Positions 547 through 47,911 of a stretch of DNA of 52,261 nt are shown here, piece after piece. Source of the stretch: Sphaeroforma arctica JP610 (lineage: Eukaryota). The notes below the pieces were generated by a model. The model worked only from the letters and a program-made list of their open reading frames with translations. It was not told the DNA's origin and searched no databases. The position numbers and the translations under genes are program-made. Each line of letters opens with the position of its first letter. The first letter of the stretch is position 1. Location: assembly GCF_001186125.1 (NCBI RefSeq), contig NW_014040220.1, positions 15,196-67,456 of the forward strand, written 5' to 3'.

Positions 547-5017
<4,471 letters not shown>

Positions 5018-17561: not shown

Positions 17562-17811
17562 TGTCAAGACAAATCCAACACTGTCATAAATATTACGGAT
17601 GTTACAAATACAATATCAGTTCGGTACCAAGTATTGTACACAAAGATAAACTGACACCTGCCATAATGTCATAAGAGTTATGACACAGAACAGAAATACT
17701 TTGCACTTACGTGCGAACAATATACTTATAGATGGCTAAGTGAAGGATATATATAACCCTTACTTTACGATGAAATAAAGAGATACGTTACATGATTCAA
17801 TAGTTCTAACA
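17562..17811 (+). repeat. Copia 5' LTR (TG...CA)
   Basis: Direct repeat of 24000-24217. Followed by gattatgggcct (17812-17823), resembling the copia-type half-tRNAiMet PBS GGTTATGGGCCC. Confidence 0.88.
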
Positions 17812-19281: not shown

Positions 19282-19344
19282 GTCGACCGCACTACTTTAT
19301 CCTGCACCAAGGGTACTCGCACCGGCCACAATGCCACCGCTTGC

Positions 19345-22300
19345 ATGAGTTCTCATCGAAGCCACGGGGACCACTTTGCCATACTTTCTTCCTCCACTCT
19401 ACCTATTCCACATCAGCACACTATCCTTCCGCCTTCACACCACTATCGCCTTTACAGTACCATCTACCACACTGGACCTACATCTCCCTCCTTCGCCAAC
19501 TCTCTCATTGACTCCGGTGCTATGATTCACATCCGCAACACCACCGCCGGCGTCACAAAACTTGAAACCGGTCTTTTTGTTGTGGAATTCCCCGACAAAT
19601 CCCAACTCGCCCTCACTCATTGTGGTCACCTCCCAGGTCTTGGTGCCGTGCTTGTTATGCCTCAAGCAGATAAAGACATCCTCTCTATCCGTCTCTTACA
19701 ACGCCATGGGTTTACCATTACTTTTCCGGCCCAACGCGACGAGACTCAACCCACCGAGTGCAAACCCTAAACCCTAAAAACGACAACGTACAACACACCC
19801 CAGACACCAACGGCCTTTACAAACTTGCCACCTTTACACCCACCACTCTCGCCGACTGGCATGATATCTCCGGACACACACATCCCCGTATGCTCCGACG
19901 TACGTTACAGAATAATAACATCGACACTTATACACAACGCAGTGACAACACTGACAATTGGAAACTCAATCCCGTTTTATTTCAAAAACATGTCGTCCAG
20001 CCTTTTGGCAACGTCGACGTCGATCTTTTTGCTAGTACCAACAATGACCAGATGTCTCTTTATTGTAGTCTCGACCCTGACACACCTCTCCACGACGCTT
20101 TCGCCCAAACTTGGAATCAATCTGAATCTTATCTCTATGGTAATATTCCTTTCACCAAGAAGGTCTGAACCGCTGCGCTGAACAAGCTCGACGCCGAAAA
20201 CGGCTGCGTCACTGTTATTTTTCCGTTATCGCCCAACAACGTTTGCTTTTAACAGACACTCCGTCAACTTCATTTCCATTTTGAGGTCATCCGCACTTCC
20301 TCTGATATTTTTCTCCGCAATGGTGACGAAGTCGTCGGTACTCCACGTTGGCGCTACATTTGCGTCGCTCGTCTCGGGAATGTCGCCCATGCTGTACCCC
20401 ACACTGCCGAACTCTTGACTGCTCAAGCCGATGTGATCGCTCATCCTCGTGACGAAACATTTTGCCAGCCTTGTGTTCAAGGCAAAATGCGCCGCCGACC
20501 TATTTCTCACACCCAGAAAAACTCTTGTACCCGCCCACCCGTGGGTACCGTTTTCCATATTGATCTTGAAACAGGTCTTCCAGCATCCGTCACTAGTTGC
20601 ACATCCATCATTAAATACGTGAACGCTAACTCTGGTATGCCCTTTGTATATCCCTTGAAGACCAACGATGAAGCCGCCTCTACACTCGACTAATTTTACA
20701 CTGATATTGGCAAGGACAAGCTTTCTCGCCTTCGCGAACTGGAGTGTGATCGTGGTGGTGAATTCACCCCTCGTGTCTTTAAAGCCGTCAACACGGCCCA
20801 GCACGTTCAAGTCTTGTTTAACCCCACGAACTCCCCTGCTCCCCACGGCCTTGTCGAACGCACCAACAGCACTATCAAAGATATCATGCTCAGCTTACTT
20901 GCCCATTGCAAACAGCACTCCCAAATGTGAGCTGAAGCCATACGTCACGCTACCCTTCTGCGAGCCAATCAACACAACAAGCGCAATCCAGACAACAAAT
21001 CCTCCTGGGAATTGTTCTATGGTGCCAAACCCGACGCCCGCTTAAAAACTATCCACGTCTATGGATGCCAAGCGGCTTACATCAACCAAGACCGTTACAC
21101 CAAACTCGATGATCCTGCCAACATAGGCGTTTACCTCGGTCATGACACTCACTCCAAATACTACGACGAGTGCCGCATCCATAGTGTCAAAACCGGTCAA
21201 ATATGTCACTCTCGTGACGTCAAGTTCAACGACTGGGTGTTCCCCACCTGGTCAACCGTTGGCACCACACCTCTTCCTAAATTTATTACTCCACCCCAGG
21301 ACATCCCAACCATCCGCGAGCTCACCAACGCCTGTTCTGTTATTGCTTCTAAACAAGTTCCCCTTCTCTCTCCCACCGCTCAGTCCACCATTCACAGCAT
21401 TTCCTGCTATCCGTCCCCCTCTCACTCTGCCGCCCACACGTCTCATTCTCACACGGTCAACTCCGCTCAAGTCTCCACACCAACTCCAACTATTCATCCT
21501 TCAGAGGCGGACTCCGATCCAGGGGAGGCCTCGAATTCAGAGGAGCACTCCCACTCAGCGAAGAACTCACACCGAAGAGAGGCTTCCAACCACGGCTTTA
21601 ACCATGCAGATTCCGACGATGACGACTCCGATATTCCCACCGCCTTCTCCAATTCTGATTCCGCCGATGACTCTGATGATGGCGCCCCCGACATCCCCGA
21701 CCCACCACGCAGCCACACGTCCACCCCCCACTTGGAAGATACAGTCAATACCGCTCTTCGCTATCACATTGCTCGACACCCTTCTTCCCGCACCCTCAAA
21801 GGTCTTCTCCTCCCCCCCCCCCCCCCCCGGCCACCAATTCTGATCCTCTCAACCCACCTCTTCTACCCTATAATATGCGTATGACACGTCAACGTGCCAA
21901 ACAGATGGCAGCCCACAATATTCACGCCCAAAACAACATCACTGTCCCCCTACCCACTCCTTCCCCTTCAGTCTCCACCCCGCCACATGTGCACTGGTCG
22001 TCTGATCTTGAAAACACAGGCCTTCCCCTTAGTACTCGCCACTCACCTCTTGATCCCACTCGTCCGTTTGTCACCTCTACCAAAGAAATCGCACTCAAGC
22101 TGAAATACACCAACGCGGTTCATCACCTTAAACGCGCCAAGCGCGTCGACCAGGCTTCTAAACAACTCCGTCGCGCTCTCGTTACTCGAGCCCGTTTTCT
22201 CATACATCATATCGTCCACTCCATACAATCCAAATCACCACCCCGACTGGTCCTCTATCCGGAACCCTCTGACGACATTCCTATCAAAATCCATACCCCC

Positions 22301-23880
22301 CCTCCCCCCCCCTTCTCAATCACCACCTATTATTATACAATGCTACTGCTCACATAATATACGCCGCGTGGGAAGTGGTCCAATAAAACCCCCTTACCTT
22401 TGCTACTATTCGCGCCGCCCTTCGCAGCGACGACGCGGACCTATGGCGCACTGCTATCGAGCGTGAACTCGCTAGCCTTGCTAACTCTGGCACTTACGAT
22501 CTTCTCAAACCTGACGATATCCCAGACGACGCGTTTATCGTGTCTAGTAAATGGGTCTTTACAGTCAAGCTTATCGACGGCATTGTCGAATAAATACAAA
22601 GCCCAGCTCGTTGCCCGAGGTTTCTCCCAGACGCAGGGCATAAACTATGAGGAGACATTTGCTCCCACGTGCTTCCACGAGACTTTGCGTACTGTCCTCG
22701 CCGTTTTCAGGTTTTGTACTGTCCTCGCCTAAACCCTGAAACAAATGACGTTGATACCGCCTATTTCTACGCTGACCTTGACGAACCCATTTACATGCGC
22801 CCACCCTCCATATCTGCTTCGGTTGGTCTTCCAGACGATTACATTTTATCCCTTAAGAAATATCTCCTCCTCAAATCTAAATTTCTCGGCATGGGCTTCT
22901 CTCAAACAGATCCATGCATGTTTATTGTAAACGATCCTGACATCTCTTGTGTCGTTCTCTTGTATGTCGACGACATTATTATCTGCGGTCGTCATCCTTC
23001 CGACGTTCCTACCTTCAAGACTAAGATCCAATTCAGCTACAAGGATATGGGAAAGACACATTGGTTACTCAGTGTTCGGGTTTTTAACCACTGACCAGTC
23101 AATTAGCCTCGTCCAAGACAACTATGTCAAGGACGCACTCCACACTTTTGACCTCCAAGATGCCCACATTGCCCCCACGCCAGCTACACAAGACACTGTC
23201 TGCAGCAACGACGGCCCAAATACCCATGCGCCTACCGTGAATTGATCGGCACCCTACAGTATTTATCTGTTCTCGCCCGCATTGATGTTAGCTATTCTAT
23301 CAATAACCTCACACGCTATATGACCAACCCATCTCTCACACATTGGATTGCCGCTCAACGTAACCTCCGGTATCTTAAGGATACCCCCACTCTCGGACTT
23401 ACCTATCGCTACCAAGATGGGCCGCCCATCGCTGACGCCTATGTGGACTCTGATTATAACGCTTGCCCTGACACACGTCGTTCCACCAGCAGTTTCGTAC
23501 TTCGTATAAATGGCGTTCCTGATGTCTGGAAATCAAAACACCAGAAGACAGTTACTACCAGCACAATTGAGGCTGAATACTACGCCGCTTCCGAAGATGG
23601 CAAAAAAATAAATTTCTGTGGCTTCGCAACATACATAATGAAATCGGCTTCCCACAACATACCCCCACTCCTCTCTATTGTGACAACAAATCAGCCATCC
23701 ACGTCATCACTGACACCGGTACCATCAAATACCTTGAATATGTAGACATTCGCCTTCATCACATCCGTGATTTACAATCCCAAGGTGTTCTCCAAATCAG
23801 GTACACAATCTTGCTGATATACTTATCAAAAATACACCCCGTCCTACTCATTCTCGTCATACAGGCAACATGCTTACCAT
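19345..23880 (+). pseudogene. Copia pol (PR-INT[MTase insert]-RT-RNaseH), disrupted
   Basis: Motifs spread across ORFs 19345, 19758, 20415, 21012, 22400, 22669, 23242. Confidence 0.92.
19953..20378 (+). other. Dam-like N6-adenine DNA methyltransferase domain within Copia pol
   Basis: DNWKLNPVLF...DVDLFASTNN...YCS...DAFAQTW...YLYGNIPF...LNKL...VTVIFP...DIFLRNGDEVVGTPRWRY. One frame, with stops at 20166-20168 and 20250-20252. Confidence 0.85.
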
Positions 23881-23999
23881 CGTGCCTTCCACCTCAGTTT
23901 CCATTACCGGTAACAATCTAGGGGAGACGGTACAGTAAACTGTCAGTCAACTGCAGATTGTATCCTCTATACATATGCACACTGATGGTTTTAGGGTAG

Positions 24000-24217
24000 T
24001 GCCAAGACAAATCCAACACTGTCATAAATATTACAGATACAATATCAGTTCGGTATCAAGCATTGTTCACAAAGATGAACTGACACCTGTCATAGTGTCA
24101 TAAGAGTTGTGACACTTAGAACAAATATACTTTACACTTACGTGTGAACAATATACTTATAGATGACTAAGTGAAGGATATATATAACCCTTACTATAGG
24201 ATGAAATAAAGTTATAC
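24000..24217 (+). repeat. Copia 3' LTR, truncated at its 3' end
   Basis: tgccaagacaaatccaacactgtcataaatattac... matches the 5' LTR up to about gaaataaagttatac. Confidence 0.85.
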
Positions 24218-24402
24218 AAGTGCAAGTGAACAATCCAGTACTTCTTGCCGCGCCTGCATCCTTAAGTACCAACAACACAGACTACAAGTAAAGTAATACC
24301 GACAACAATATACACAATCTACATCACGAATGGTATACTCTTCAGCTAAGGAAGTTAATGGGGACCAGAGACGTCGTCAACCTGCGGTGATCACAAGGGA
24401 GA

Positions 24403-25905
24403 TTGGACTGGACACTGTACCGCTTCCTGACGATACGAAACCGGAAGAGGTGGATCAGAGATGTGAATGATTGCCAGCGTGCGTCTAGCGGTATATCAGA
24501 ATTTCCAGCCAAAGTAAAAGGTCTCTCAACATTTGAACATTTCTTCCCTATGGAATGGGCTAAGAACAATCTCATATCTATTACGAACATAAATCTGAGG
24601 GCACTAGGAAAAGCGGAGATGGACTACAATGAGTCCATGGTGTAGCTGGCTATATGTATATTAATATGCCTATCGTTAGATACAAGTCCTACTTAGTTAC
24701 GCAACAAGAAAAGGATGATAAAGGCTATGGCATACGGACTTTGTGGCCAGCATGGTATGATAATATGGAGAAGTCATTCTTTGCTTCTGACAAAATCTGT
24801 ATTGATGAAACAATGATGGCGTGGGACGTACCCACTGCCTACGCCAACATACACGTGCCTCGCAACCCCAAGCAATACGGCAACGAATGGAAAACAATAG
24901 CCTGCTGTGAGACCAATATAATATTCAGCGTTGATTTGGTCGAGGGGAAGAATAGGCCAGACTACTTGCCACTTTTAAAGTTTAGCGAGCATCTGGCTAC
25001 GGTTACGGTTGTGCTACGATTATGCCAGTATATTGTTGGTTCTTCTAGACGAGTCATAATGGATTCCGGGTTCTGCGTTCTCAAAGTATTGTACTACCTA
25101 CTGACAGTCGGACATAATAACATCGTTATAATTAAGAAGAACAAATCTGGCCTAAGGGATTGCCAGGAGATCGTATGAAGGACCATATGATGGATCGCCC
25201 TTTGTTTGATGTCCAAACACTGCAAGGAAAGTTCAACTATGTTGGTGAGAAGGATGAGAGCTTGAAGTTTTATTTACTGGCTTTCAAATTACTATATATA
25301 CATGCCTATGTGTATGGTAGCGTTCGCCGCGAGGGACACACATTATACCGTTACACAGCAGGGGTAGGGTATGAGATGCAGTACCCGAAGGTGTATTCAG
25401 ATTACTATAATCAAGGTAGAGCCGCTGTAGATATTAATATTAATCTGAGGAGCAACACGCTATCTATTGAAGAAGGTATATTTACACGTAGTTGGGAGCA
25501 GCGAACATTAAATTTCTTCATCGACATTACCATCACTAATTCAGTGATGCCAAGCAAGCATCTACATATCAACAGCAAGACTATTCCAGAACATCATCTC
25601 CTATTTGTTTTAGGGTTTAGGGTTTAAAAACTTATCATGACGGCGTTTCACTCCGTCGTCGGGCCGTAGCTGAATCCGAATGCAACTTTAGAGAACGAAA
25701 AAAGAATGAAGGTGCATATAACATCAACAAGCGAAAATTCAATGAGGTACGTACCAGCTCGCAATCAATGGTATGCACTGGGGCCGGTTGCAAGCTGCCG
25801 AGAGGTAAGAGTAGACGCAAAACGTACTGTGTATGTTCGCCCTGGAAAACTGTATGTACTGATTGTTATATAGATCATAAGCTACAGAAGCTTGGGCACT
25901 ATTAA
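24403..25905 (+). mobile_element. piggyBac-like DDD transposase pseudogene
   Basis: ICIDETMMAW, PRNPKQYG, VVLRL, RRVIMDSGF, YNQGRAAVD, TRSWEQR, and a Cys-rich tail CTGAGC...KTYCVCSP...CTDCYIDH. Frameshifted. No TIRs recognised. Confidence 0.85.
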
Positions 25906-26639
25906 GAATTTTTGAAATCGCATACATGCGATGGTTTTGTACATCTAATAAAAAAATATCTCCATTCACAGCATCTGATTTAAGATTTCGAACTTTAGTG
26001 ACTATACATAATCTAACAACATACAAGGTCTGAGAGTATCAACCGATTCGTTACACTGTTACAAACACAACGACACCTTTAACATCTTCATACGTACAGT
26101 AACACTCATGATAGTGTGTATTTTGTTAGTGTACACGTTTGTGTATAGTGACTCGAAGTACTTTTTGACAGTTCTGGTGTATACGGTTGCAATTCAACAA
26201 CGGCTACACCGACGAACCAAACTGTTCAGGACGAGCCCTTCAATTGCCGCAAAAAAAATCTTGGAATATATTAATACACGACAAGTTATATTAAAAGCCA
26301 ATCGTACACAAACGTGTATTTAAATCTACATTTTGTTCACCTGTATTTTTTTTGTATTGTTTAATTTTTTGTGCATTGATAGTGTTCACATTTGACAAAA
26401 CACGTAGTTATGGGGTAGGATACGATGGACATAGATGGAGAACACTGGCCGTGTCCTGTACGAACACATCGAGAGAAAAAGGAGACAATGCACTACGTGT
26501 TTGAGATGCAAGGGTTTTTAGGTTTTAGGGTTTTAGGGTATTATATGTGTTTTAGACCCAGTAGAAAATCGATACATTGGCGACCATTGCTGTTGTTTGA
26601 AGCGAGTGCACGCAGACCCGACGATCAGAGGCAAATAAC

Positions 26640-29600
26640 GAGTGCAAGCTACAGCGACTCCTTTGCCAACTATACGCACAACTCGAAATACAGCACCAGT
26701 GAACTATAAAGAAGTTGACGAGATTACGGTTGTTTCTGAAGCAAAGATTGCCGAACATGATTATAATCGAGAACGTATTGACGAACTATATGGCGTATTG
26801 AGTGTTAAAAGCCCAGTCTTTCAAGTACAATATAACGTACGAATCGCTTACAAATAACAGGCCCAAAGCTACCAAACAACTCATAGGACATATCAGAGCG
26901 CTGGTTAAATCTGTAGTTCAAATAGTATCTCCTGTGAACAAAAGAGTATCTGATTTACTCTATAAACAAGGGATTCACTAGGGCTCTGAAGGCGTCATTG
27001 CAGACAATGAGAAACTTGTCAGAAATATTGCAGACGTTTGTGTTAGATCACCGGACGAGGAAGTAAAGAGAGCTTTCAGAGCTCTACTTTTCGAACAGAT
27101 ACACAATGAATACATGACTAAGGCCATGAGTGGAATTAAAGTTAAAGAAGAGCTACAGGCGGCTGTGGAAAGATAAAGAACGGTGGCTGGTTCTGATGAG
27201 GAATTCAAAAATGATACCCTCGAGATTCCTGACACAAAGTTCACGACAAGCGAGCGCATCAAGGTACTTTGTGACTGGAATTAAATCAATCAAGGACATA
27301 GCTTGAAGAAAAGAGTAATATAATCGCCCGGGGTATGTTACTGTGATTGAAATGTATGTTAATGATGATAATTTATAAAATTTTGTTTAATGTTCATGAC
27401 TGAGTTGATTTTACTATAGTTGATCCTGTACTCTTGTATCACAGGTGTCAAAGAATAGTTTTCTATATGCTTTAGATTGGCTTGCTGGGTCCGATATGAC
27501 GTCCGGCTATGTTGTGGTGTTTGCGGTCAGTCTCGGTTGGTACAGCGCGCCTGAAAGATATCCGTACATGCTGCGTAAGTATAGTAAAACAATGAATTGG
27601 GACAAGTACAACAAGCACTGCGGAGTTGACACACCACTTGCACATTTGGGAACCGCGAAACGAAAGACAGCCGAGGGGTTTGCAATCCTTAGCACACCCA
27701 CTAGTACTCAAGGAACACCCTTACATCCAGCTGCTACACCTAATACATCTCTCCGAGCAGACGGCACAGTATTGCAACCAAACGGAGGGTACAAACATAT
27801 TGGATGTATACATTTCTTCAAGATGCTTGAGTTGGTGACGAAAAAAAATCAAACATCAAGCTGGGATATCATACTACTGCACTACTTTCATTTCACAGAC
27901 TGATTTCTTGGAAACATTCACAAAGGCATATGACGCATTCACAAAAGAGGTAAAACATTTACAGACTTTTTTAAAACGCGACTATAGAAAGCACTGCAAT
28001 ACTAAGAACGATGAGTGTGATGATGATATATCACACTGCATGACTGCATGCAGCATGCTTTAGGCGGAGACAAGTGTACCAAAGCGCACGAAATCCGATG
28101 TAAAGATTGTACGAACATAATGACTATAATACCTGCGATAGAACCGTCTGTGCGTGAAAGCTTAATGAATAAATCACATAGAATGCGAGTCGATGCAGGA
28201 TCAGCACAACTAGCGGCCGGCAGCACGGAACCAGTGAATATAGAGATTCCAGAGTTGATGGTACGAGTGATGAGCCGGTGTGGACAGAGCTCATCAACAT
28301 GCTGCCGCCACAGATCGGAGATAATGTTCAACTAGCTAATGGTATGGATTTTGCAGAGCTAGTACCTATACTTCCTGTGCTTAAAGAGTATAGACTCTGA
28401 AATCATAATGTTTAGAAATCACATGGCCATAGGCTCCTGGCAAGACAAAATCAAGAATTCACTAGACTCTGAGAGTCTGCTTGTGATTTTAGATCACAAG
28501 CAGAAGATTCTATCATAATGGTATCTCGGAGATATGATCAAATACTTTGGCAAACGTGGTCACAGTTTATTGAGTGCAGCGATCATGGAAAGGAACGAGA
28601 AGAATGGGAATATATATCCTAAATACCTTGATATGGTCATGGACGACCATAATCAGAACAGCGCCAGTGTTCAATCCACACTTGAAGGTCTCATGTTGCA
28701 CATAAGTAAGAAATATCCTACTACAAAAGCTTATTACGATACTGAGTGATAACGCAGGGGCCTTCTCCAGCGTCGAGAACTTCCCGAGAGTTACAGTGAA
28801 CAGGGAAGGATTTAAGGATAGAGCGCTGGATCTTTACCGAAGCCCTGCAGGGCAAGTCAATATTAAACGCGCATTTCTCGTTTGTGGCCCAATAAATATC
28901 TAATTGGATAATGTATATGAGAGATATAACTAATCTCGAGGATATCTATCATGCACTTGTGTGTTGGGATGACAACAAGAAATGTGGTACTCGGACAATT
29001 TGAAATACGACTGTCGCATACGCTAATGTGCGACGCGGCGCAAAGAGTACTACCAAAAAGGATGACGCAGCAGCACAAAAGAAGATTAGGGATGGGGTAC
29101 AAAAGACATATGAAGTTATATTCAACGAAGATACTGAGGGATTGACGTTTTACACACAAACCGATATTCTGCCTTGGTTTGTGCCCTACACGTGTACCTT
29201 CAAGGAAAATTACGTTTTGCAAGAATTTGAATGCGAGATTTCATCGCCGCCCAACACAAATACAGTTTTCGTCAAAGGCACAGGAAAGAAACACATGTAT
29301 GTTCAGGCACTACTTGAACACGTATCAGGTACCAGTGTAGTCCAAGAGGTAAATCCCACTCGATCAGCTGCTCAGGTAGCCGCTCTAATTGCTGATGGTG
29401 GTCCTTCTGCTGTCAATGTTGATTTGGCCCCAGTGTTAACCAGTAACCCACCGCATATGAAGGACAGGATGGGAAACCGATACTGTAAAAAGAAAATCCC
29501 GCTTATCTGGTGAGAGTACTAGGCTCGATACCGAGCAGGTTGTTAAGTGCCATGAATGGTTTGTGCAAGGTGTTGGGACCGCGGACAAGATTTCAGCAGA

Positions 29601-30430
29601 GGCAGCAATACAACGTTTACGAAAGGACCTCAGTACAAATTGGAGTGCGAGCTACGCCACAACATTGGAAAGCGTAAAGAGACAGTATACTAAAAATCGA
29701 ACAGCGTTGGATCCAAAAACGAAAGCAAATCCTAACTACAAACAATGCCTCGTATGTGATGTGTCCTTCATCTCTATGGGTATCCACGCAAAACACTGCC
29801 CCGAATTCAGCGACGATCGCACTTTATCCAAATGGATACATGAGAACGCCACACTACCAGATGGAACAACTGTACGACCGATTACAACAGATACTGCTGC
29901 CTTTGCTAAAATTAAGGATAACTCTGAATGCAAACAATGCAAAGTATGTAAAGCTTACTTTATTGCAGTCGGGCACCACGCGAAGAAATCTACCGGCTTT
30001 GGTGAAGATCAACTGCAATTCATCTGGTACAACAAAGCCGCTGTCCCGGAAACTTCTTCACCGATACCTACGCCTACGCATGTGCCTGTCCCGGAAACTC
30101 CTTGGCCAATACCTACGCCTACGAATGTAAGTGCATGTGCCTGTCCCGAAAACATCCTTGCCGGTACCTACGCCTACGCTTGTGCATGCACCTCTCCCGA
30201 GAACTCCTTTGCCAATACCTACACCTACGCAGATGCCTGTCCCGGAAACTTCTTTGCCAATACCTACGCCGCCTGTGTCTGTACTCATGGCATCGCCCAT
30301 ACCAATAATACATTCTGCACACACACAACCACTTCTAAAACACACAGAACCATACACCAGATTTACACACAAGCCAAAACAAGTACCTATGAAACGATGT
30401 ATAGCTGAAGTATGTGGGGCGCTATCGTGA
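26640..30430 (+). mobile_element. Degenerate large DDE transposase, Sola3-like
   Basis: FLKRDYRKHC, CMQHALGGDKCTKAHEIRCKDC, LDHKQKIL, YFGKRGHSL, NQNSASV, LSDNAGAF, GKSILNAHF pieces across frames. The family call rests on remembered motif pattern only. Confidence 0.55.
30041..30275 (+). repeat. Coding-type tandem repeat (about 36 bp, PVPET..PIPTPT)
   Basis: tgtcccggaaact...ccaatacctacgcctacg repeated about 5 times. Confidence 0.8.
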
Positions 30431-30636
30431 GATTTTAAAAGCGGCTGAATGATGATCCGACTTTGTATGAGTTAATACACAACAAATGAATCACTAAATG
30501 AAGCGAAGGAAATAAAAACATAATTAAAAGCGAAATACAAAATCATGAAACGAAGAGAATGAAAACAAAATTATGATTTGAAACGTGAATTATATCACGC
30601 ATACACTAATTATAAATGATAATTACACGCACACGC

Positions 30637-30667
<31 letters not shown>

Positions 30668-30668
30668 C

Positions 30669-31353
30669 NNNNNNNNNNNNNNNNNNNNNNNNNNNNNNNN
30701 NNNNNNNNNNNNNNNNNNNNNNNNNNNNNNNNNNNNNNNNNNNNNNNNNNNNNNNNNNNNNNNNNNNNNNNNNNNNNNNNNNNNNNNNNNNNNNNNNNNN
30801 NNNNNNNNNNNNNNNNNNNNNNNNNNNNNNNNNNNNNNNNNNNNNNNNNNNNNNNNNNNNNNNNNNNNNNNNNNNNNNNNNNNNNNNNNNNNNNNNNNNN
30901 NNNNNNNNNNNNNNNNNNNNNNNNNNNNNNNNNNNNNNNNNNNNNNNNNNNNNNNNNNNNNNNNNNNNNNNNNNNNNNNNNNNNNNNNNNNNNNNNNNNN
31001 NNNNNNNNNNNNNNNNNNNNNNNNNNNNNNNNNNNNNNNNNNNNNNNNNNNNNNNNNNNNNNNNNNNNNNNNNNNNNNNNNNNNNNNNNNNNNNNNNNNN
31101 NNNNNNNNNNNNNNNNNNNNNNNNNNNNNNNNNNNNNNNNNNNNNNNNNNNNNNNNNNNNNNNNNNNNNNNNNNNNNNNNNNNNNNNNNNNNNNNNNNNN
31201 NNNNNNNNNNNNNNNNNNNNNNNNNNNNNNNNNNNNNNNNNNNNNNNNNNNNNNNNNNNNNNNNNNNNNNNNNNNNNNNNNNNNNNNNNNNNNNNNNNNN
31301 NNNNNNNNNNNNNNNNNNNNNNNNNNNNNNNNNNNNNNNNNNNNNNNNNNNNN
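30669..31353. other. Assembly gap (N run)
   Basis: Ns. Confidence 1.
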
Positions 31354-31993
31354 AACAATGCTAATTATATAGGTGCACACACCCATTTAATATCCACTTT
31401 CACACTATAGCAGTTCGATGCATTATATATAATTGCCAAGCAACACGCAAGGATGGCGTCTCCTTGCACGATTTGGGATCCAGTTCTTATGGGCCGCACA
31501 ATACTACTGTTAGCGAAGCGCGTATGTGTTAGGCACTTCGACGTGACTGACCTGATAATTGATAGTAATAATCATCTATGAATTAAACGAGGGCGAATGC
31601 CGTCGCTACACTTGCCACGAAGACGCCGTAGCAAATACAGAAGACTATCTTAAACCTGACAGACAAAGTGAACATACATTTATTCCTTACAACATATACT
31701 TGATAATATATGCACTGTCTTATATACACAACACTATATACTCAAAATTTGGGCTTCTTTCCCGATGCTGGACCATCCGTCATTGCAGCAACTCTATTAC
31801 TTACCGCTGCCGGCTCAGTCATTGTTTGCCGGTCAGCTATCCTCTCGTTGCTCGACTTCGGAATATTTCCACGAGTACTATAGCCGACCGATATGGGTTT
31901 CCATTACCAGTTCAATGTACCCAGAACACTTGTGCTGATCGACGTATTTTTATCGTCGCTATCTGCCCACGTGGTAAACGTTCTGCTGTACCG

Positions 31994-32838
31994 TCAGTGT
32001 ACTATCATCCTTTGGGGTTCGACGCCTTTACTTCTTGCACAGGAGGTGCGTGCCGGTAGTGGCGTTTGATATGTTAGATTGAATTTGCCAACTAATCTGT
32101 CTTTATCTGCCCAACTACCACTGGAAACGACACTGTCAGTTTGCAATGTCGGAGTTATACTACTAGGGAAATAGAGTATTCGCGAAAAGATCAAGTCTGT
32201 GCCATACGTGCTCGCTATTAGTTGCCACCCGTCAGTTGATACGCCTGCAATTTTCTTCTTTTCAATGTACTGGGACGCAATGTCGCTCAACGATCTATAT
32301 CCTATGTGTGTTGTAAACATCACACGGCTTCCTATCTTGCCAATTTTAATTGCAGTTGTTAAATCTGTACCTTCATGGGCACGCCCTTTACCCCGAGTAG
32401 CCATTGTTGCCAATGTTATAATATCGTCTTCGCCAGGCCCTGATGCTTTGGTCTTTTTCTGTTTCATGGGCTGTTTGATGGGTTCGTTCTCTATATCCTG
32501 CTGATCTTTGTCTCTAGAATACAGTTTTGGTGCAGCCATTAGCTGTCTCTTACTTGCACTAAAGATAGCTAAATTGTCACCACAAGCTTCACCTAGTGCC
32601 ACTCTAGTCATTGTTAGTTGTATAGTATTGGTACTAGGTACTGCAACAGGTAAAACTGATGCATCAGGTAATACTGATACATCATATGATACATCAGATG
32701 GTACCGATACCGAAACTGCATCATACACAACAGAAATCTGAGAAATGTTAATATGGATGATGCTTCCACGGCTTCAGGCAACCTCAATATCGGGACAGAA
32801 CCAGTTCTTGGTCTCTTTTTATTTTGATAATCGGCCAT
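31994..32838 (-). CDS. Hypothetical protein, possibly TE-associated and frameshifted (ORFs 32838-32614 and 32728-31994)
   Basis: 244-aa open frame with protein-like composition and basic NLS-like patches. No recognised domain. Confidence 0.35.
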
Positions 32839-33639
32839 CTGATTTTTTTTTTGAAATGCATACTACACACTTTCCCACGGCGTCAATAGATCGTGCATAC
32901 GGCGTGCCCAAGAATTTTTACCTCAAATATGGGTTTTCGAGTGTTTTATTATTATTTTGTACTCAAATTATGCCCAACGCCTGCCCAACGCCTACCCCAA
33001 AAAAAAAATTGATGATTTCAAAATTTATCTAACATGTACCCAAGTCGTGCCCCAAGTGGCGGACCTCATGTAGCTGCCGTTCTAAGCATTGTACCGCCTA
33101 CCTCATGGTACCTACGTGCTTGTATTTTCTCCTCATTTGATTAATCCTCTCAAACATACCTATCAATCATTAGCCGTCCATAGCTTACATTTACGATGGT
33201 GTAATACGTGAAAAACATTTGTTGGTTTTGGGTGTTAAAATAAAATAACATACATAATTATGTAGTACATCTGTATATATGTATGTACTAAAATACCTAT
33301 AAATCCAGTACTATGGATTTAGAGTTCAGTGTTTTATGTACAATAAATTTCCACTCGTGGAGATTAAGTTTGAGATCTACATTCTGCTGCGTAGTTGTAC
33401 TGAATACATTTTTTTGAGTGCTTCGATCTCATTCTCTAAACAAGTGATCGTGGTCTGTGAGACACTGTAAGTTGGTGTGTACTAGTATTTGATGGGATGG
33501 TAGCCTTCATAGTCTTCTTGATGTGTCGAGGTAAAGGATGTGCGCAGTCTTCAAAATCCTCCTTGATAAGCATCTTATTCAATAAGTATTGTTCCGCATC
33601 GTGCATCTCTTTCACTTTGATTCTAGCTAGGTGACTATT

Positions 33640-33906
33640 TCATTCTTCCATCGTCATTGGCACTGCATCATCGGTCAGTTGGTTCTATTTCTGGCTTCAT
33701 TGCAGGATATACTTCGAATGAAAGTGCTTTTCACACATCTCTGTCCAACTGCTTGCCTGCAAACTCTTCACTCCTTTCGCTGTTTGTTAGCCGTCCTAAT
33801 CTGTCTTCCACTTTTATAATTTCTCTGGATCATTGCTCGGAACTGGTTTCTGTTTATTGTTTGCAGATCTTTTGTCTGAACAGTAAGTCGCCACACACAC
33901 CGCCAT
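33640..33906 (-). pseudogene. THAP zinc-finger domain pseudogene
   Basis: Manual translation MAVCVATYC...PSNDPEKL*KW...MCEKHF...LTDDAVP gives C2CH plus P, W, F and the AVP box. In-frame stops only. Confidence 0.75.
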
Positions 33907-34348
33907 ATTGAATTTTTACGCTATGTACTAAGTACCTATACGTTGAGCTATGGCTATGTTTATAAGCTTCCCACACGTCAAATACGGCGGTGTGCACACG
34001 TGCGTGCAATACTGCAATTTGATCACAAAATCGACTAAAGCCGATTTTTTTCTACAATGTACTAATTTCAAGAAAGTTTTATTTGTCTACTACTTTTACG
34101 ACTGGTGAGTAATGATTGGTTGTAGAAACAGCCAAAGACCATAGCCTTCTAAAAAATAGACAAGCCAAACATCCTCTCCCAAATTTGGGCGGCATAGCAT
34201 TTTTTGGTGCCTAGCATAATTTTCTTCGCCAAGGAATAAACTTTGGCGCCAAATATTGATACCAGATTTCTAGTACAAATTTTAAAACACAGAATCATAT
34301 AACACACATCCACCTTACAATACGGCTATATAGGGGGTCTTCGCAGTT

Positions 34349-37300
34349 ATGGTGTCTTGCGCTGTTGCCATATGTGGCAATAGAAATGGTAGTCTATTCA
34401 TTGGCGAGAAGTTGTCTTTCCTTCGTTTTCCTGCGGCGAAAGACTACCCTAAGTACAGGTCGAACAAGCAAGGACGGCTTGCAAAACGGAGAACAGATGA
34501 ACCACTTGGATCGAAGCATGCTTCCGATTATTCAGTGCCGAGGATGGACTGACTGCAGGTGTCCACCAACTTTTGGAAAAGAAACGATCATAGAGTCTGC
34601 AGCGTTTATTTCCACCCCTCAGTACTTGTGGTAAAAGAGAAGGGTACGCATTCAGCCGTGATCGGCGCCACCCCTACCATGTATCTTAAGAAGTTGGCGG
34701 CCGATGCTGAGCCAATTGTGGAACTGTCAAGTAGACAGAGACTTCTGATGATACCTTACAGTGAGATCTTTGAATTGGATAGTTCACTAGGCAATCCATT
34801 GTCTGGAAAACGACTGCTTGAAACTAATCCAACAGCAGATCGTGCACGCAACGTGAACGCTTAACTAACGAGACTATTCACATATCACGACAGCGAGAGG
34901 ACGAAGAAGATCACATTAGCTCGTTCAAAGAAGTGATAGGCAAGCTGAGTTGGGATTGCATAAATAATGGACATGGGAGTTAAATGCTGATACGATCATA
35001 ATGTCACGGTCGATTAAATCGGAGATTGCCTCAGTTCCATTTTTACAACGTGTGCATCTAATACTTGGAAGTTCGGATGGATACATAGATATAGTCGTTT
35101 ATACTCCTTCACACACAGCCGTCAAAAATACTTGCTATAGTAACGATGAATCTTATGTTTATTCTGTTACCCATCTTGAGAAACAACTCGGCATAGCACA
35201 TAAGTACAGTACATTGCTCAAGCGGATCCGTTTTATTGAGGACACGACAGATGCACTGATACCAAGCAGTAAGCCGACTCAAACGGCAAAATCAGAATGT
35301 AATATTCCACGTGAGCGTGGGGATTATCTGCTACGTGGTGACGTCGGTCGAGAAAGAGCCGTATTTTACTACCACTTAGCCGAACAAATCGAGATGCTGG
35401 AAGTCAACCGGCACAAAGGAGATTCCCAGAAAATTCCTTTGTGTTAGCATATGCGCAACAAATGTATTCCCGTGTCCCTGGACATTACCATAGGATGAGA
35501 GAGAATATGCTTTATACCTTTCTACCGGATAAAAGGACCCTATTTTCTCGCACTAATAGTGATGCTTTACCGGCGGACTGCATATTCGCGGGTACAGGAT
35601 CCGCACATGCTGCTATATTGGGATCAATAGTTAGCGCTAAAACATCTACATCAACGATACACTACAAAGAAACGGAAATCAAGCGTAAGTTGTTCTCACG
35701 TACGTTTGTGTACGCACTTCACCTTGATGAAATCAACATTCGTCCAACGAATAATTTCAGCAATATAACCGGATTCTTTGGCCCGGCGCACAACAACCCC
35801 GATGCGCTTGCAAATCACATGCAAGTATTTCTGATGACACCTTTAAGTGGGCCAAAAACATCGCTTGCTCTTATGGCGCGACCTGTAGCTAAACAGACTA
35901 GGCTTGATTTATTTTTATACACAATGGAGGCCATATCTAAGAGTCAGGAAGCAGGAGTCACGTTGTGCCCTGTAATTTTTTTTATGGCTGTAGCGTTAAT
36001 CGGAAGGCCATGTGACTATTGGTGTTACATAATACTGATCCCGAACCACCAGGACGTCGACTTGAGTTGCCTCAGCAGCGTCTCCCGACATCTGTAAATG
36101 TAAATGGTGTAAAATTATTTCCGTTGTTTTATCTCATACACATCGTAAAGTGTATAAGAAACAATCTTGTGCGGAAAGGGCACAGATTTAGGTATCCTGA
36201 GATGAAGCGGAGTACGGGATATACTCTACCGGAAGGCACGTGTGACATAGTTTGGGTCCGTAGATTGTATAATAAGTACAAAAACAAACTATTCTCCCCT
36301 GTGCGCATCAATCGTGTTACAGTATGGCCTAGTAATCTGGAAAGGCAACAAGTGCGGCCAGCCTTGTTGATTTTCTCGACGGAGATTACAAATGCCCTAA
36401 AACGTGAATTCGGTGGTATGGCCTCTGGTACATATTTGTTCCTTGAAATGGTACAAAATTTTATTATTACACCGTTTATAGCAGTCAGTAGTACGAAAGG
36501 AAAACATAAACGGTTGCCTCGGGCGGATCTATTCAGACACCCAGCAGATCATCGTCTGAGAGAAGCTGAAAAATTAGCAGCGTGGCTGCAAGATGCTTGG
36601 TATGCCGGTCTGGCCAATGCTGATCCAAGCATTATTGTAATATCTGACGAAGAAGACGACGCCGATGAGGAGGAGGAGATTGAGGTAAGTAATAGAAAGT
36701 ATTCGTATGTATTTTATTTTTCTTTTCTAAAGGTAGGATTTTATGAGTCTCTCGGATTCGCCCCAACGAAACATACCATAGTTTCTAATAGAGCGACAAC
36801 GAAACACTAAATAAAATCCTTTCGGCGAAAACAGTACTGAGAGGATTATATATAGGCAATGTCTCAGCCTCACAATCCCTCAGAGTATTGCTGTTTTCAC
36901 GAAGCAAACCTAACTTTACTAAAAGACTCATTTCGTTATTTACTTTTATATTTTACTATACTTAGACTTAACCTAAGCGTTTATTTACTCTAAGGCGTTA
37001 ATATCCCTTTGATAGACCAAAACATACACAGTAGATAGTAGAGCTAGTCACAATACGCCGCATGCAAGTGATAACAGTGGGAGTGCCAATTCAAACACCA
37101 CTAGTGCAAATACTGAGAGCAGCACACCAATTACAAGTTCATCACGTGTAGAAAAAAGAGGCCGCAAGCCTCTGGAAGATGGCCTCGTGCGATACATGCT
37201 CCTCTCCTTAGATTTTAAGTGTGTTTTACCGGGCCGTATTAATAACGACCCGATAGAAGTGAGCTTCTCGATAGCGCGTGCCATGGCTGGTGGAAATCAC

Positions 37301-38393
37301 ACCTAGACATTTGTGCATATGTATATGCACAAAGAACTCTTAGCATCTGCGCAATATATGAGATTTGTGCAAACGCAGACGGTTATCACAATAGAGATAT
37401 GTACAATCATTTATTCGAGGGCTTAACGAAACGACAGATGAACTAGAAGGTCACAAATTCAAAACTTTGAATTACCTTTGGAAATGGCTTCTTAATTGCG
37501 GTCCCAAAGTAGCCCAAGCATCTCTTCACGATTCCACCTTCCCATATGTAGCGGAGTATGTTGCACATAAGTGGATGAAGAATTCAAGAGTGAATTGCGA
37601 CGTATGCATGGATACGGTGACGAAGGGGAAGGGATTAGATAAAGAGAAACATATGTTTATAAAGTACTCAAATAGTCTAATCGCTGAGTTAGATAGGAAA
37701 GGTCTTTCTTGGCCAACATCTCTGTAGGTGATGAGCGGACTAGTGTTAAATGTAGTAGATGTGATAATTTCGGATGAGAAAATGTTAAGGCAATTTAATG
37801 ATTCTACGAGTGCTAGTCGTGTAGGATTACGCGTGATCAATAATGTTATGTCTAAGCGTATTCAATCATGCCGTATGTTACAACCATTGAAGGGTCAGTG
37901 TGGGCACTGTGGTTCACTTAGGTTGGACACTATCGTTGCTCCAGCACTAAACACACTGTATAATATAGCATGAAATATTATGTCGTTGCTATTGAATCGT
38001 AAGTGTGTAGCCACAATGGTTACCCTAAGCATGGTTAAATCTAATAAGAAGAAAGATCGGCCAACATCGGTGCGAGGAACCGAGGATGCAACACTCACTC
38101 ACGATAATACAAAAAAGTGGACCACGGAGAAGTGTAAAGTGATATCGAGGAGTGTCGATGCACCTTTAGGTGGTGATATAGAGGCCTTACGTCAGCGCTG
38201 CATACTACTACAAAAGTTGCAAGCAGTGCAACTAGGTTCAGTGCTGGGTTTAAAGATCGACGATGCACGAAAATTGTGTGATCAATTAGATCTTACCTTG
38301 GGTACAAAGGTCGATATGGTAGAGCGCATCGCACGGACTCCCAATTCTCGTCAAGAGCACGATGCGCTGTTATCAGCACTTAGAGAAGGGTAG
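34349..38393 (+). pseudogene. P-element/THAP9-like transposase, disrupted
   Basis: THAP (MVSCAVAIC...FLRFP...RVCSVYF...GATPT), LHLDEINIRP, LANHMQVFL, HIVKCIRNNL, PSNLERQQVRPA, NDPIEVSFSIARAMAGGN. Probable intron from gtaagt at about 36685. Confidence 0.9.
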
Positions 38394-38418
38394 CGATAGT
38401 CCTAAACATACACCATTG

Positions 38419-39310
38419 TGTAAAAGTCGGTCTCCTCTAGGCTGACTATACGATATCAAGACGTTTACGTTAATAATACAATACGTTAAACGTTTAAATG
38501 CAAAATGTTAAAAATAAGTTTAGCTTCAACCCTTGATAGTGAGCAAAAGATTAGGGGATTTTAGACTAAGACTATTGTCTATATGCTCCGCTCTAATCAC
38601 TCACTACTTCGGTCTAGATTTATTTATGTTTTAGTTAATAAGACTAGATATCTTTTCATTGGACGCATATTTTACATTTCACGCCTCGAAACAACTATCT
38701 ACTCAAATTAACCAATAAAATATCTCTAAGTCCAACTTAAGAAAATAAAAAAATAAAATCAAAACACCAAGCTGATGCAGTATACATCTGCACCTAAACC
38801 CCATCACTTAGTACCTAGCTCCCCATCCCATTTAAGGCATAGACGGGCACATCTAGTTGGCTGGCTAGGAGGAATCAAAACCAGGTTGCCCTAAATTGTA
38901 ACAACCCTGATCCTGTCCTTTTCTTAGTGGATTATCTTTCTCTGAGATCATTATCGAATTATAACATAGGTTTGTACCAACAACCATTTCATGCCTGAGA
39001 CCCTCTCTCATGGTACTCCCGTTAATTAGAGATTCCCAAAGTGTCATTTTCAGGTGTCAGATTTGTATCATTCCTATATTTTGTACAATTCTAATTTCAG
39101 TGGAAAAACCAATCTATATTTGGAAAACCACCTAATTGTCCACAGTAGAGTCCCATACTCTACTGAGTACTATCACATGTTCAGAATCTTGAATATATCA
39201 ATTCTTGTTTAAACGTATTCCAGTATTATCAGTATAAACGTTAATATGATAATACGTTTATAAAATGCGTTAACTGTGCAACTACTATTAGGAACCCGCT
39301 ATTTTTTACA
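38419..39310 (-). repeat. Gypsy 3' LTR
   Basis: Direct repeat of 46651-47353 with an extra ~200 bp (about 38456-38660). Confidence 0.93.
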
Positions 39311-39484
39311 TTGCCCCCCCCCCCCCGATTTTTCAATGTTGGTTTATATGTGGTATTAGCACATCGACTCAAAAAGCTCACATGAATTGTACAAACGAAA
39401 AGAAAAGAAACGGGTTTCAATCATATAATGGCCTCAATGCTTATGTTATATTCTCTTAGACAAAGTATACTTAGACGTTATAAG

Positions 39485-39845
39485 TTACTCGGTTACTCTA
39501 TTACGTCTGGGCTTTGGTCCTTGTGGTCCCCGATGGTGGATGGGACGTCTCTTAATGACTTTTGGAGGTACGTACATTCCATGCTGTTTAAAGCTGGGAA
39601 TGTATGATGTCTGTGGATAGATCTTAACCACGTCGGGTCGCTTATTCGATGGTAAGATTGCTTCTGCATCAGCCTTATTTTTGTGTAAGAGTTTGCAAAA
39701 CTTCTTATTAAAAGCCTTTAGTACATCCGGATCATCAAATGCTGATGGTGGAATACCATACTGTGCTCCATCGGCGAACTCCGTAGCGTAATATGTCATA
39801 TCCTCATGTTTGTACTCCCTAGAATCTTTTTAAACTTGTAAGACA
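39485..39845 (-). pseudogene. Chromodomain-like C-terminus of Gypsy integrase (frameshifted)
   Basis: YKFKKIL/EYKHEDMTYYATEFADGAQYGIPPSAFDDPDVLKAF follows the chromodomain pattern loosely. Confidence 0.55.
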
Positions 39846-41058
39846 TAAGAGGTGTAGTAGCTTCACGTGTGCGACAAAGGATGATCTCTGTCGTAGGGAT
39901 TAGATGTGACCCAATATTTAAGGCACTAGAGCCGTCAACGTTGTTAAATTCATACGTTCCGCTCTTCTTATCGGCCACAGAGATCATAAATGGTCCAATA
40001 TATTTAGCCGTAAGCACAGTTGTATCGGAGTTGCGAGCCATAATGTTGACTATATCGCCTACCTCAATCTCGACTATTTTTTTGGTATCATTCCATCGTT
40101 TTTGTCTCTTCTTGAAAGCGATGTCCTTCATCTCCCTTAAACAAGGATAGACCACATCTATGGTCCGACGCATCTTCTCTAACCATGGTAACACATGATC
40201 ATCTTGAGACTCCTTGTTGAAGGGTATCTGTAATTCACTATAACGGCCCCGGAAATAGGGAGCGGGTGTTGTACCAGTGACTGAATCAGGGGATTCGTTC
40301 ATCTGTGTCTGTACCCAATTGATTGAGTACGGCCACATGTCAGCATCATCAAGTAGTGCTGCTCGCATGAACTCCTTCATTTTTCTGTGTCGTACCTCGT
40401 TTGCACCTTGTGTCTGAGGCTTGTAAGGTACACCCATCTTATGGCATGAACCCGCAACGAGTAACAATGTCGTCATGACATCTCCTGTAAACTCACTACC
40501 GTTGTCGGAACATACAATAGCTGGCCAGCCGAAATCTGCGAAGCACTTATATATGCACTCAGCCACAGTTTGTGTCGATTTGTCCTTCAGCGGATATAAT
40601 ACATTATATCTTGATGGGACATCAAACACGTGACAGACATATTTATCCTTCGTGTGTTCGGACGTGGGTAGCTCAACCAAATCAATGATAACCCGGCGCC
40701 ACGGCTCGTCTTCTGATAAGCTGCGTAAAGCTGCGTATCCGTAGCGCTTGATCCGGTTAACTTCGCAGTTGTTACATTCGTGATACACCTGAGATATATA
40801 TTGCTTGAGGTTCGGGTTTACGATTCCACACCTCGTACAATCTTTCTCAGTTCTAACCTTATCCATGTGCTTAAGAGCATGATTTTGTCTTGACCACTTC
40901 AGAATCGCCTCCTGTGATTTACTTGTTACATTGGAATCAGGAGGTGAGGATTCCACCGCGTCATCACCTGGACTCGAAGACTCGTCCTGCCCAATCTCGC
41001 CTAAAGCTTCTACATCGTGAATCCGACTAATGTTTGATCTGTCCAATAGGAAAGTCAT
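39796..41058 (-). CDS. Gypsy integrase (zinc finger, rve DDE core, GPY/F)
   Basis: NHALKH...HECNNC, PWRRVIIDLVELP, SDNGSEF, PQTQGANE, KYIGPF. Confidence 0.93.
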   Translation of the reverse strand: MTFLLDRSNISRIHDVEALGEIGQDESSSPGDDAVESSPPDSNVTSKSQEAILKWSRQNHALKHMDKVRTEKDCTRCGIVNPNLKQYISQVYHECNNCEVNRIKRYGYAALRSLSEDEPWRRVIIDLVELPTSEHTKDKYVCHVFDVPSRYNVLYPLKDKSTQTVAECIYKCFADFGWPAIVCSDNGSEFTGDVMTTLLLVAGSCHKMGVPYKPQTQGANEVRHRKMKEFMRAALLDDADMWPYSINWVQTQMNESPDSVTGTTPAPYFRGRYSELQIPFNKESQDDHVLPWLEKMRRTIDVVYPCLREMKDIAFKKRQKRWNDTKKIVEIEVGDIVNIMARNSDTTVLTAKYIGPFMISVADKKSGTYEFNNVDGSSALNIGSHLIPTTEIILCRTREATTPLMSYKFKKILGSTNMRI

Positions 41059-41305
41059 TCATCAATTGCTTAAGCAATCGAGTTTCCCTGTCAGACCGCA
41101 TTTTGTTGTAGAAGGCTTTCGCTAGTGATGCGCTCCTCTTTGATTCCTTTGAATTTGGCTGTATCTCGGTAACACGTACTGCAGGTGCTTGTGTTGTTCC
41201 AGCCTCCCGTTGAGACTTAGATGTCAAGAATGGAATCTTGATTTCTTCAACATCACGCTTGAAGGTCTCGAATTGTGTCCACTTGGTTGTTCCAACTGAA
41301 CCTAT

Positions 41306-41701
41306 TCAACATATAATAGTATGTCGCCAAGGCGTCTTTTGGACTGCACGGGTACCCTGGTAGAGAAAAGTATCTACCTTTCTATCCACATAGATCGGCT
41401 CACATTGTATCATTGAGATCAACTGTGGTAGCCATTTATCTGAGTGTCTAAGGGGACAATACAACGTGATGGCAGCATTTTGAATATGTGCATAATTTAG
41501 CAACTGTGGTATTAATAACCATGGAGGATTTGCCCAGGCATTCTCGTTAGACAAGTCAATCTGGAATCTATCTCCTTTCGGATGTTCCAGTGTCCGGTAC
41601 CTTGGTAGTTGCGCATTGTGATGGGCAGCAAACATATCTATGGTATGTGGTCCATGTATGTTGTCTGCGATCTTAAACCACCGAGGATTGACCATCCAAT
41701 C
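41306..41701 (-). other. Dam-like N6-adenine DNA methyltransferase domain within Gypsy pol
   Basis: DWMVNPRWF...IDMFAAHHNAQLPRY...DRF...AWANPPW.LIPQLL...ITLYCP...KWLPQL...DTFLYQG..VQKTPWR. Confidence 0.9.
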
Positions 41702-47353: not shown

Positions 47354-47911
47354 ATGGGAACCGAAACAAGTCTTATTTGAAACAATCTTATTTATATATC
47401 TTATTGTTTACTTTATTAAAATAAGTCGCTAGGCACCAATTTTCGCCACGCCTCTTGAGGATGTTAGGCTTATTCAATTTTCAGAAGGCTATGCAAAGAC
47501 GCAAAAATGTGTGTGACTCTGATCTACTCTTGAGGTTTAACGATGTAGCAGAGACTAAGCCAATCACCAGAGTTGCGAACTAAAGTATACTCTTTAAAAA
47601 AACCCACCAAAATATAAACCCTAAACCCTAACTGTACACAGACAAATAAATGACAAAAATTGAGCCGATTCCGTTCAAAAAAATAAACATAAAAATAAGC
47701 GTTATCTTAAATATTATCCTTTGGGTTTACGAATAGGTACATTTTCTGAGGCAGCCAAACTGTCTCGAATTGTCCTATTTTTCACTTTGTGTGAGATGTG
47801 AATAGTTTCAAATCGCCTTTTCATGAAAAAAGGTCCATTAATCAAGTGCAATTTAGAAAAAATTTATGGTCGATTTGCCCCGGATATACTTTAAAACGCT
47901 TAAGCTTAGCT

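What the first reader, a model, noticed from the sequence alone, without database searches (positions are those of the whole stretch)
19857..41701. Homologous Dam-like adenine methyltransferase domains in both a Copia and a Gypsy LTR retrotransposon
Seen: two ~140-aa domains (19953-20378 +, 41701-41306 -) align motif by motif. DNWKLNP..F/DWMVNP..F, DLFASTNN/DMFAAHHN, DAF/DRF, YGNIPF/WANPPW, TVIFP/TLYCP, and a distinctive tail DIFLRNGDEVVGTPRWR/DTFLYQGTRAVQKTPWR. Established: this motif series (SAM-binding DxFA, catalytic NPP[YFW]) is the phage Dam-like amino-methyltransferase domain known downstream of RNase H in DIRS1-type tyrosine-recombinase retrotransposons. It is not a standard part of Ty1/Copia or Ty3/Gypsy pol. 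Inference: the same MTase subfamily was captured separately, at different pol positions, by two integrase-type superfamilies in one genome. This suggests selection for retroelements to mark their own cDNA (6mA or 4mC), for example to mimic active host chromatin or evade silencing. I cannot confirm whether this is already published.
Basis: partly seen in the sequence, partly recalled or inferred. Interest (0 to 1): 0.9.

Follow-up and report, generated by a model that had tools for sequence, protein, structure and literature searches.

The report
Copia integrase with embedded adenine methyltransferase
Two decayed jumping genes here each carry an adenine-methyltransferase-fold domain: the Gypsy one matches a design published in 2026, while the Copia one has the domain inserted inside its integrase zinc finger, a layout I did not find in print and one that likely lets the element mark its own DNA as it integrates.

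Summary
Observation confirmed. Both LTR elements are real, broken, and carry a Dam-like (PF05869-type) domain. The Gypsy element (RT-RNaseH-Dam-integrase) fits the DAM-LTR class of a May 2026 preprint, which names an ichthyosporean Gypsy lineage; this scan also noted Gypsy-Dam on other DNA. The Copia element is the new part. Its domain lies in frame between the HH and CC halves of the integrase zinc finger (195 aa apart; 16-50 aa in 106 ordinary relatives). It is not one-off debris: two more copies at about 85% identity carry it, synonymous changes are in excess (16 of 31, P about 0.01), and four Sphaeroforma arctica gene models at 47-56% identity show parts of the same layout. A confident model (pLDDT 87) is a Rossmann amino-methyltransferase, nearest solved match the RNA-cap enzyme CAPAM/PCIF1 (Z 9.8), then T4 Dam (7.8). 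The catalytic motif is NIPF, not NPP[YFW]. The preprint's main text never mentions Copia. Activity, substrate and donor are untested; a special kinship of the two domains is unresolved. Verdict: new variant of a known kind, interest 0.55.

The parts
17562..17786 (+). Copia 5' LTR (starts TG)
   Evidence: direct repeat with 24000-24217, 198 of 216 aligned bases identical
19182..19521 (+). Copia gag zinc knuckle (CIICNKSGHSIFGC) and protease motif (DSGA), in different frames
   Evidence: read from six-frame translation; positions counted by hand; Retrotran_gag_2 upstream only E 0.17
19857..19877 (+). HH half of the integrase zinc finger (WHDISGH)
   Evidence: relative SARC_07328 has WHDRLGH and matches the first half of gag_pre-integrs weakly (E 0.16) ahead of its Dam domain
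19953..20378 (+). Copia Dam-like methyltransferase domain, in frame with integrase; DLFAS 20022-20036, YGNIPF 20136-20153; stops at 20166 and 20250
20379..20462 (+). linker between Dam domain and CC half, conserved in three S. arctica relatives
   Evidence: alignment A3
20463..20486 (+). CC half of the integrase zinc finger (CQPCVQGK)
   Evidence: aligns to residue 55 onward of PDB integrase chain 7z0h_W (that this chain is Ty1 integrase is recalled)
20553..21245 (+). Copia integrase DDE core and SH3-like domain; stops at 20691 and 20928
22390..23804 (+). Copia RT and RNase H, frameshifted
   Evidence: RVT_2 hits; tblastn of Copia pol P0023
24000..24217 (+). Copia 3' LTR
38661..39313 (-). Gypsy 3' LTR
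   Evidence: 614 of 644 aligned bases identical to 46691-47356
39808..40941 (-). Gypsy integrase
   Evidence: rve E 1.7e-11; tblastn of P0003/P0004
41306..41701 (-). Gypsy Dam-like domain (DMFAA 41638-41624, ANPPW 41533-41519), one frame off RNase H in this copy, stop at its end
   Evidence: in one open frame with RT and integrase in P0003 and P0004
41701..43523 (-). Gypsy protease, RT, RNase H
46691..47356 (-). Gypsy 5' LTR

Best explanation
A Copia retrotransposon lineage carries a Dam-like methyltransferase-fold domain inside the zinc finger of its integrase, which likely travels with the integrase onto the new DNA copy and would methylate adenines there, as proposed for the Gypsy DAM-LTR class to which the neighbouring element belongs. 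Shown: both domains, their positions, the fold of the predicted model, other copies, and selection on the Copia reading frame. Inferred: (1) protease cuts upstream of the HH motif, so the domain stays part of mature integrase; (2) integrase holds it on the cDNA and target DNA; (3) it lays 6mA; (4) host AMT1 maintains the mark and keeps the new insertion in transcription-friendly chromatin. Both copies in this window are broken and make no intact polyprotein.
For: In-frame position between HH and CC, 195 aa apart against 16-50 aa (median 28) in 106 of 150 relatives that have both motifs. Two further contigs in runs of the same organism carry the domain with flanking integrase sequence. 16 of 31 listed differences are synonymous against 9.8 expected, P 0.0098; 18 of 31 at third positions, P 0.004. 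GNIPF is unchanged in all three copies and in SARC_02258; SARC_07328 reads LYGNI up to a break in its gene model. Four S. arctica proteins on four contigs, 47-56% identical, cover HH-Dam, Dam-CC-core or Dam-linker. Model pLDDT 87.4; fold matches CAPAM, T4 Dam, E. coli Dam and phage Dam; 30 of 30 Atlas feature hits are PF05869 clusters. NIPY lines the active site of Erm adenine methyltransferases (PMC9386465, one passage), so N-I-P-aromatic can be catalytic. The preprint reports more 6mA and expression on DAM-LTRs in S. arctica; S. arctica lacks detectable 5mC (PMC12344493, passage).
Against: No activity was measured. The preprint's E. coli expression of DIRS, DAM-LTR and adintovirus domains raised no 6mA. 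Iyer et al. hold the DIRS domain likely inactive and PCIF1-derived (PMC4738411, passage). The nearest solved structure is an RNA enzyme. Motif IV departs from the NPP seen in most relatives (NPPF/NPPW/NPPP in 32 of 52 non-Copia rows). The selection test pools unpolarised differences from three copies over 121 bases only. One sister copy has lost or replaced about 100 bases at the domain's C-terminal end, and a joint 19945-20814 of unknown content in 3 of 4 runs may be a Dam-less relative. No intact full-length Copia-Dam polyprotein was found. That the split zinc finger refolds was not tested.
Confidence: 0.45

Rival explanations
1. The domain is kept as a non-catalytic module: it binds nucleic acid, SAM or a host protein (for example 6mA chromatin or RNA polymerase II) and steers integration or packaging.
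For: Motif IV altered to NIPF and very long branch (2.56 changes per column); negative E. coli assay; Iyer et al. view; many relatives have non-catalytic first residues (FPP, CPP, HPP); a place inside integrase suits a targeting module.
Against: The Asn, second Pro, aromatic residue and the DxFA SAM motif are conserved across Copia lineages about 50% apart; NIPY is catalytic in Erm enzymes.
Confidence: 0.3
2. The domain methylates RNA (m6A or cap-adjacent m6Am on the element's transcript or primer, or the RNA strand of the hybrid) inside the particle rather than DNA.
For: CAPAM/PCIF1 is the top solved match in three searches: Foldseek E 6.7e-5, top six rows; VIA Z 9.8, rmsd 3.3, 136 aligned, above T4 Dam 7.8; best PDB sequence hit of the 57-row profile, though only E 0.25. 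It would explain the negative DNA assay.
Against: No PF05869 phage enzyme appeared among the solved matches, so CAPAM may be nearest by default; against predicted viral structures phage DNA N6-adenine methyltransferases rank first (E 2.9e-6). The domain is about 140 aa and lacks the rest of CAPAM. A place in integrase points to DNA.
Confidence: 0.2
3. The Copia domain is neutral debris from a nested DIRS or Gypsy insertion.
For: This copy has four stops in the integrase frame; Pfam score is weak.
Against: In frame, same position in at least two sister copies and four distant gene models, conserved linker, synonymous excess; no donor RT, LTR or recombinase sequence around it.
Confidence: 0.05

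Closest known systems
DAM-LTR retrotransposons, ichthyosporean lineage (Fernandez-Moreno et al., bioRxiv 10.64898/2026.05.21.726589; whole main text read, supplements not seen)
   Same: Integrase-type LTR element with a PF05869-like domain in pol; Gypsy organisation without a Pfam chromodomain; lineage reported in S. arctica; same self-marking hypothesis.
   Different: All LTR lineages there are Ty3/Gypsy-like; 'copia', 'ty1', 'PF07727' occur 0 times; the screen used RVT_1 and E 1e-5, which Copia-Dam (RVT_2; Pfam E 0.001-0.011) would miss. No insertion inside an integrase zinc finger is described; motif there is NPP.
DIRS1-type tyrosine-recombinase retrotransposon MT domain (PMC4738411 and PMC5890265, passages)
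   Same: Same domain family and motif order; several DIRS-like domains are the best pairwise scorers for the Copia domain.
   Different: Both elements here have direct LTRs and a DDE integrase; no tyrosine recombinase was found by Pfam.
CAPAM/PCIF1 cap-specific m6Am methyltransferase (PDB 6IRV, 6IRX)
   Same: Nearest solved fold; FAS and NPPF motifs align with the family profile.
   Different: 11-14% identity; only the catalytic core is shared; cellular RNA enzyme of about 500+ aa.
CopiaMBD of arthropods (PMC6673714, passages) and KnitGypsy-Dnmt3 (PMC5890265, passages)
   Same: LTR elements that captured an epigenetic domain into pol.
   Different: Methyl-CpG reader or cytosine methyltransferase, not an adenine methyltransferase.

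Membership tests
Ty1/Copia (element A) | Direct LTRs | tested here: met
   no target-site duplication seen by eye
Ty1/Copia (element A) | Order protease-integrase-RT-RNase H with RVT_2-type RT | tested here: met
   the 7 non-Sphaeroforma top hits that carry a name or were scanned by Pfam are Copia-type pol or unnamed plant/algal proteins
Ty1/Copia (element A) | Compact HHCC zinc finger (gag_pre-integrs) | tested here: not met
   both halves present but 195 aa apart, against 16-50; this is the variant feature
Ty3/Gypsy (element B) | Direct LTRs and order protease-RT-RNase H-integrase with RVT_1 | tested here: met
DAM-LTR (preprint) | Dam domain in pol of an integrase-type LTR element | tested here: met
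   both elements
DAM-LTR (preprint) | RT groups with Ty3/Gypsy | tested here: not met
   met for element B by Pfam, not met for element A (RVT_2); no RT tree built
DAM-LTR (preprint) | NPP catalytic triplet | tested here: not met
   met in B (NPPW), not in A (NIPF)
Ichthyosporean DAM-LTR lineage | Dam domain falls in that clade; no chromodomain | tested here: inconclusive
DAM-LTR (preprint) | Raised 6mA and expression on insertions | not testable with these tools
   no modification data
Amino-methyltransferase, Rossmann fold | Class I SAM-dependent fold with motif I and motif IV | tested here: met
   model of the natural homologue SARC_02258, pLDDT 87.4
Amino-methyltransferase, Rossmann fold | SAM-dependent methyl transfer | not testable with these tools
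   needs an assay
DIRS1-like | Tyrosine recombinase, inverted or split repeats | tested here: not met
   DDE integrases and direct LTRs

The most novel reading that the evidence does not exclude
A Copia integrase has evolved into a two-activity enzyme: an adenine methyltransferase built into its zinc finger writes 6mA on the cDNA or target site at the moment of integration, so each new copy arrives marked as active chromatin; Copia and Gypsy lineages in one 6mA-using protist reached this trick separately, possibly by passing the domain from one LTR superfamily to the other.
Probability: 0.3. Interest if true: 0.8.

Novelty: new variant of a known kind. Interest (0 to 1): 0.55.

Why it matters
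It extends adenine-methyltransferase capture to the second large LTR superfamily, which strengthens the case that 6mA-using hosts select for it. The position inside integrase gives a cleaner test of where and when the domain acts than Gypsy or DIRS layouts. It shows that an integrase zinc finger can tolerate an insert of about 165 aa. If these families were missed by the published screen, they would sit in that study's 'no-Dam LTR' control set for S. arctica (inference), which can be checked on existing data.

Tried and rejected
No genome is held for this window, so genome-wide copy counts and dN/dS could not be made. Word-index searches found no relative of the Copia domain (0 of 78 and 0 of 91 candidates); the full HMMER search did. 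No Copia-Dam in JGI metagenome contigs by the Copia query (56 pattern matches, none confirmed) and 0 of 80 Dam loci fetched with a Gypsy/DIRS alignment had a Copia RT hit; those patterns were not Copia-derived, so this is weak. No phage tblastn match and none in viral contigs. First model on 6 rows was poor (pLDDT 57) and is not relied on. No RNA holder listed among runs: no evidence on expression. Donor of the Copia domain: unresolved; the tree held 58 domains, after dropping loci under 105 aa and near-duplicates, and had no phage outgroup. The idea that Dam always sits next to integrase in LTR elements was dropped: two earlier notes report it between protease and RT. A chromodomain-like tail in the Gypsy family could not be tested beyond Pfam. 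No tRNA genes in the window. Literature searches for a Copia-borne adenine methyltransferase (listings and abstracts starts) gave none; one search was off target; most subscription papers and the preprint's supplements were not searchable.
Full report
Observation. On a profile of five other Dam-like domains the Copia domain scores 59.6 bits, the best of 2000 shuffles 9.3; on a 52-row profile without any Copia row it scores 68.9. Only these two places in the window match the profile clearly. Pfam Dam gives E 1.5e-5 for the Gypsy and 0.011 for the Copia domain; 5 of 6 rows of alignment A2 match PHROG 111, DNA methyltransferase, the Copia row being the miss.

Element B is a Gypsy element on the minus strand, LTRs 95% alike, with protease, RT, RNase H, Dam, integrase. 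It has frameshifts and stops, but two unnamed relatives (69% and 63% in the domain) hold RT, RNase H, Dam and integrase in one frame. This matches the DAM-LTR class of bioRxiv 10.64898/2026.05.21.726589 (whole main text read), which lists an ichthyosporean Gypsy lineage in Sphaeroforma arctica, reports more 6mA and expression on these elements, proposes self-marking of reverse-transcription intermediates, and found no activity in E. coli. I found the paper before looking at earlier scan notes, which also point to it. This half is known.

Element A is a Copia element on the plus strand, LTRs 92% alike, order gag, protease, integrase, RT, RNase H. One frame runs from 19674 to 21884 with four internal stops and no frameshift. 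In it, WHDISGH (19857) is followed after 25 residues by the Dam domain (19953-20378), a 28-residue linker, CQPCVQGK (20463) and the DDE core. The CxxC aligns with the CxxC at residue 55 of the PDB integrase 7z0h_W. In 106 of the 150 best HMMER hits that have both motifs the HH and CC halves are 16-50 residues apart, median 28; here 195. So the domain is inserted into the spacer of the zinc finger.

Is it a family? Contigs of four public runs of one organism (some may be the source of this DNA, so they show copies, not independent occurrence) hold the window copy and two others at about 85% identity that run from upstream of the HH motif into the Dam domain, one of them on into the integrase core. 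Over 20070-20270 three contigs of similar depth lie in each of two runs. The stop at 20166 is private to the window copy, GNIPF is unchanged as protein in all three, and 16 of 31 listed differences are synonymous against 9.8 expected from the same spectrum (P 0.0098). Against this, one sister lacks or replaces about 100 bases at the domain's end, and one joint of unknown content skips 19945-20814. A full HMMER search of 1.84 billion representatives returned four hits at 47-56% identity, all S. arctica JP610 gene models on four contigs: SARC_07328 (WHDRLGH, first half of Dam, integrase core), SARC_05500 (second half, CNPC, core), SARC_02258 (nearly whole domain with YGNIPF, linker) and SARC_08604 (second half, core). 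The other 146 of 150 have no Dam domain; 6650 proteins passed E 0.001 and only the best 150 were seen. The layout is therefore old enough to have diverged to about 50%, and in the data seen it is limited to this species. The window's host is likely S. arctica or a close relative; that is an inference from these hits.

Fold and motifs. A model of SARC_02258 on a 57-row alignment has pLDDT 87.4. Foldseek ranks CAPAM/PCIF1 first (E 6.7e-5); VIA-align gives CAPAM Z 9.8 (rmsd 3.3, 136 aligned), T4 Dam 7.8, E. coli Dam 7.7; among predicted viral structures phage N6-adenine DNA methyltransferases lead. The Atlas gives PF05869 for 30 of 30 feature hits and TM 0.67-0.74 to eukaryotic clusters, several with RT domains. 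Motif IV is NIPF. Erm enzymes use NIPY (PMC9386465, passage), so catalysis is possible but unproven. Iyer et al. place the DIRS domain with PCIF1 and think it inactive (PMC4738411, passage).

Kinship. The Copia domains form one clade (100/100) on a long branch. The quick tree put them beside the RNaseH-Dam-integrase Gypsy clade (SH-aLRT 86), the careful tree did not, and the AU test does not reject the union (p 0.255). Pairwise scores favour several DIRS-like domains over the Gypsy ones, while the tail (FL..G...W+..+.++G) looks most like the Gypsy rows by eye. The claim of one shared subfamily is open.

Mechanism. Because the domain lies downstream of the first integrase motif, processing should leave it in mature integrase (inference from Ty1/Copia processing, recalled), which binds cDNA ends and target DNA. 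The simplest use is to lay 6mA on the new copy, in a host where 6mA marks active genes and 5mC is undetectable (PMC12344493, passage). I give this 0.45, a non-catalytic binding role 0.3, RNA methylation 0.2, debris 0.05.

Novelty. Gypsy-Dam is published as a preprint. Copia-Dam was not found: the preprint has 0 occurrences of copia, ty1 or PF07727, used RVT_1 and an E 1e-5 cut-off that these domains miss, and seven literature searches listed nothing on it. Its supplementary figures and tables, which I could not see, may hold such sequences among unclassified DAMs. Verdict: new variant of a known kind; interest 0.55.

Noticed in passing
window 24633-25627 +: piggyBac-like transposase remnant (DDE_Tnp_1_7, E 2.6e-20) just after the Copia 3' LTR.
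   Followed up: no
window 16553-16815: 75% match to the Gypsy protease region 43252-43524; likely a fragment of a related Gypsy copy.
   Followed up: no
window 39600-39900 - and P0003/P0004 after integrase: Short conserved stretch after the Gypsy integrase that resembles a degenerate chromodomain by eye; no Pfam Chromo hit.
   Followed up: partly
window 34260-38393 + and 50823-52020 +: Runs of overlapping ORFs of 100-260 aa with no clear Pfam match; possibly another decayed element.
   Followed up: no
window 2431-3108 - and 9409-9888 +: Host gene exons: TruD-type pseudouridine synthase and M16 peptidase.
   Followed up: no
L028, L029, L032, L043, L071, L073, L074: Marine metagenome Gypsy-like elements with the Dam domain after the integrase; L001 has it between RNase H and integrase.
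   Followed up: partly
P0005, P0009: Dam-integrase element with an Agenet/Tudor-like domain between Dam and the integrase zinc finger.
   Followed up: no
window 30669-31353: 685-base assembly gap; two 20-base gaps at 6609 and 49154.
   Followed up: no
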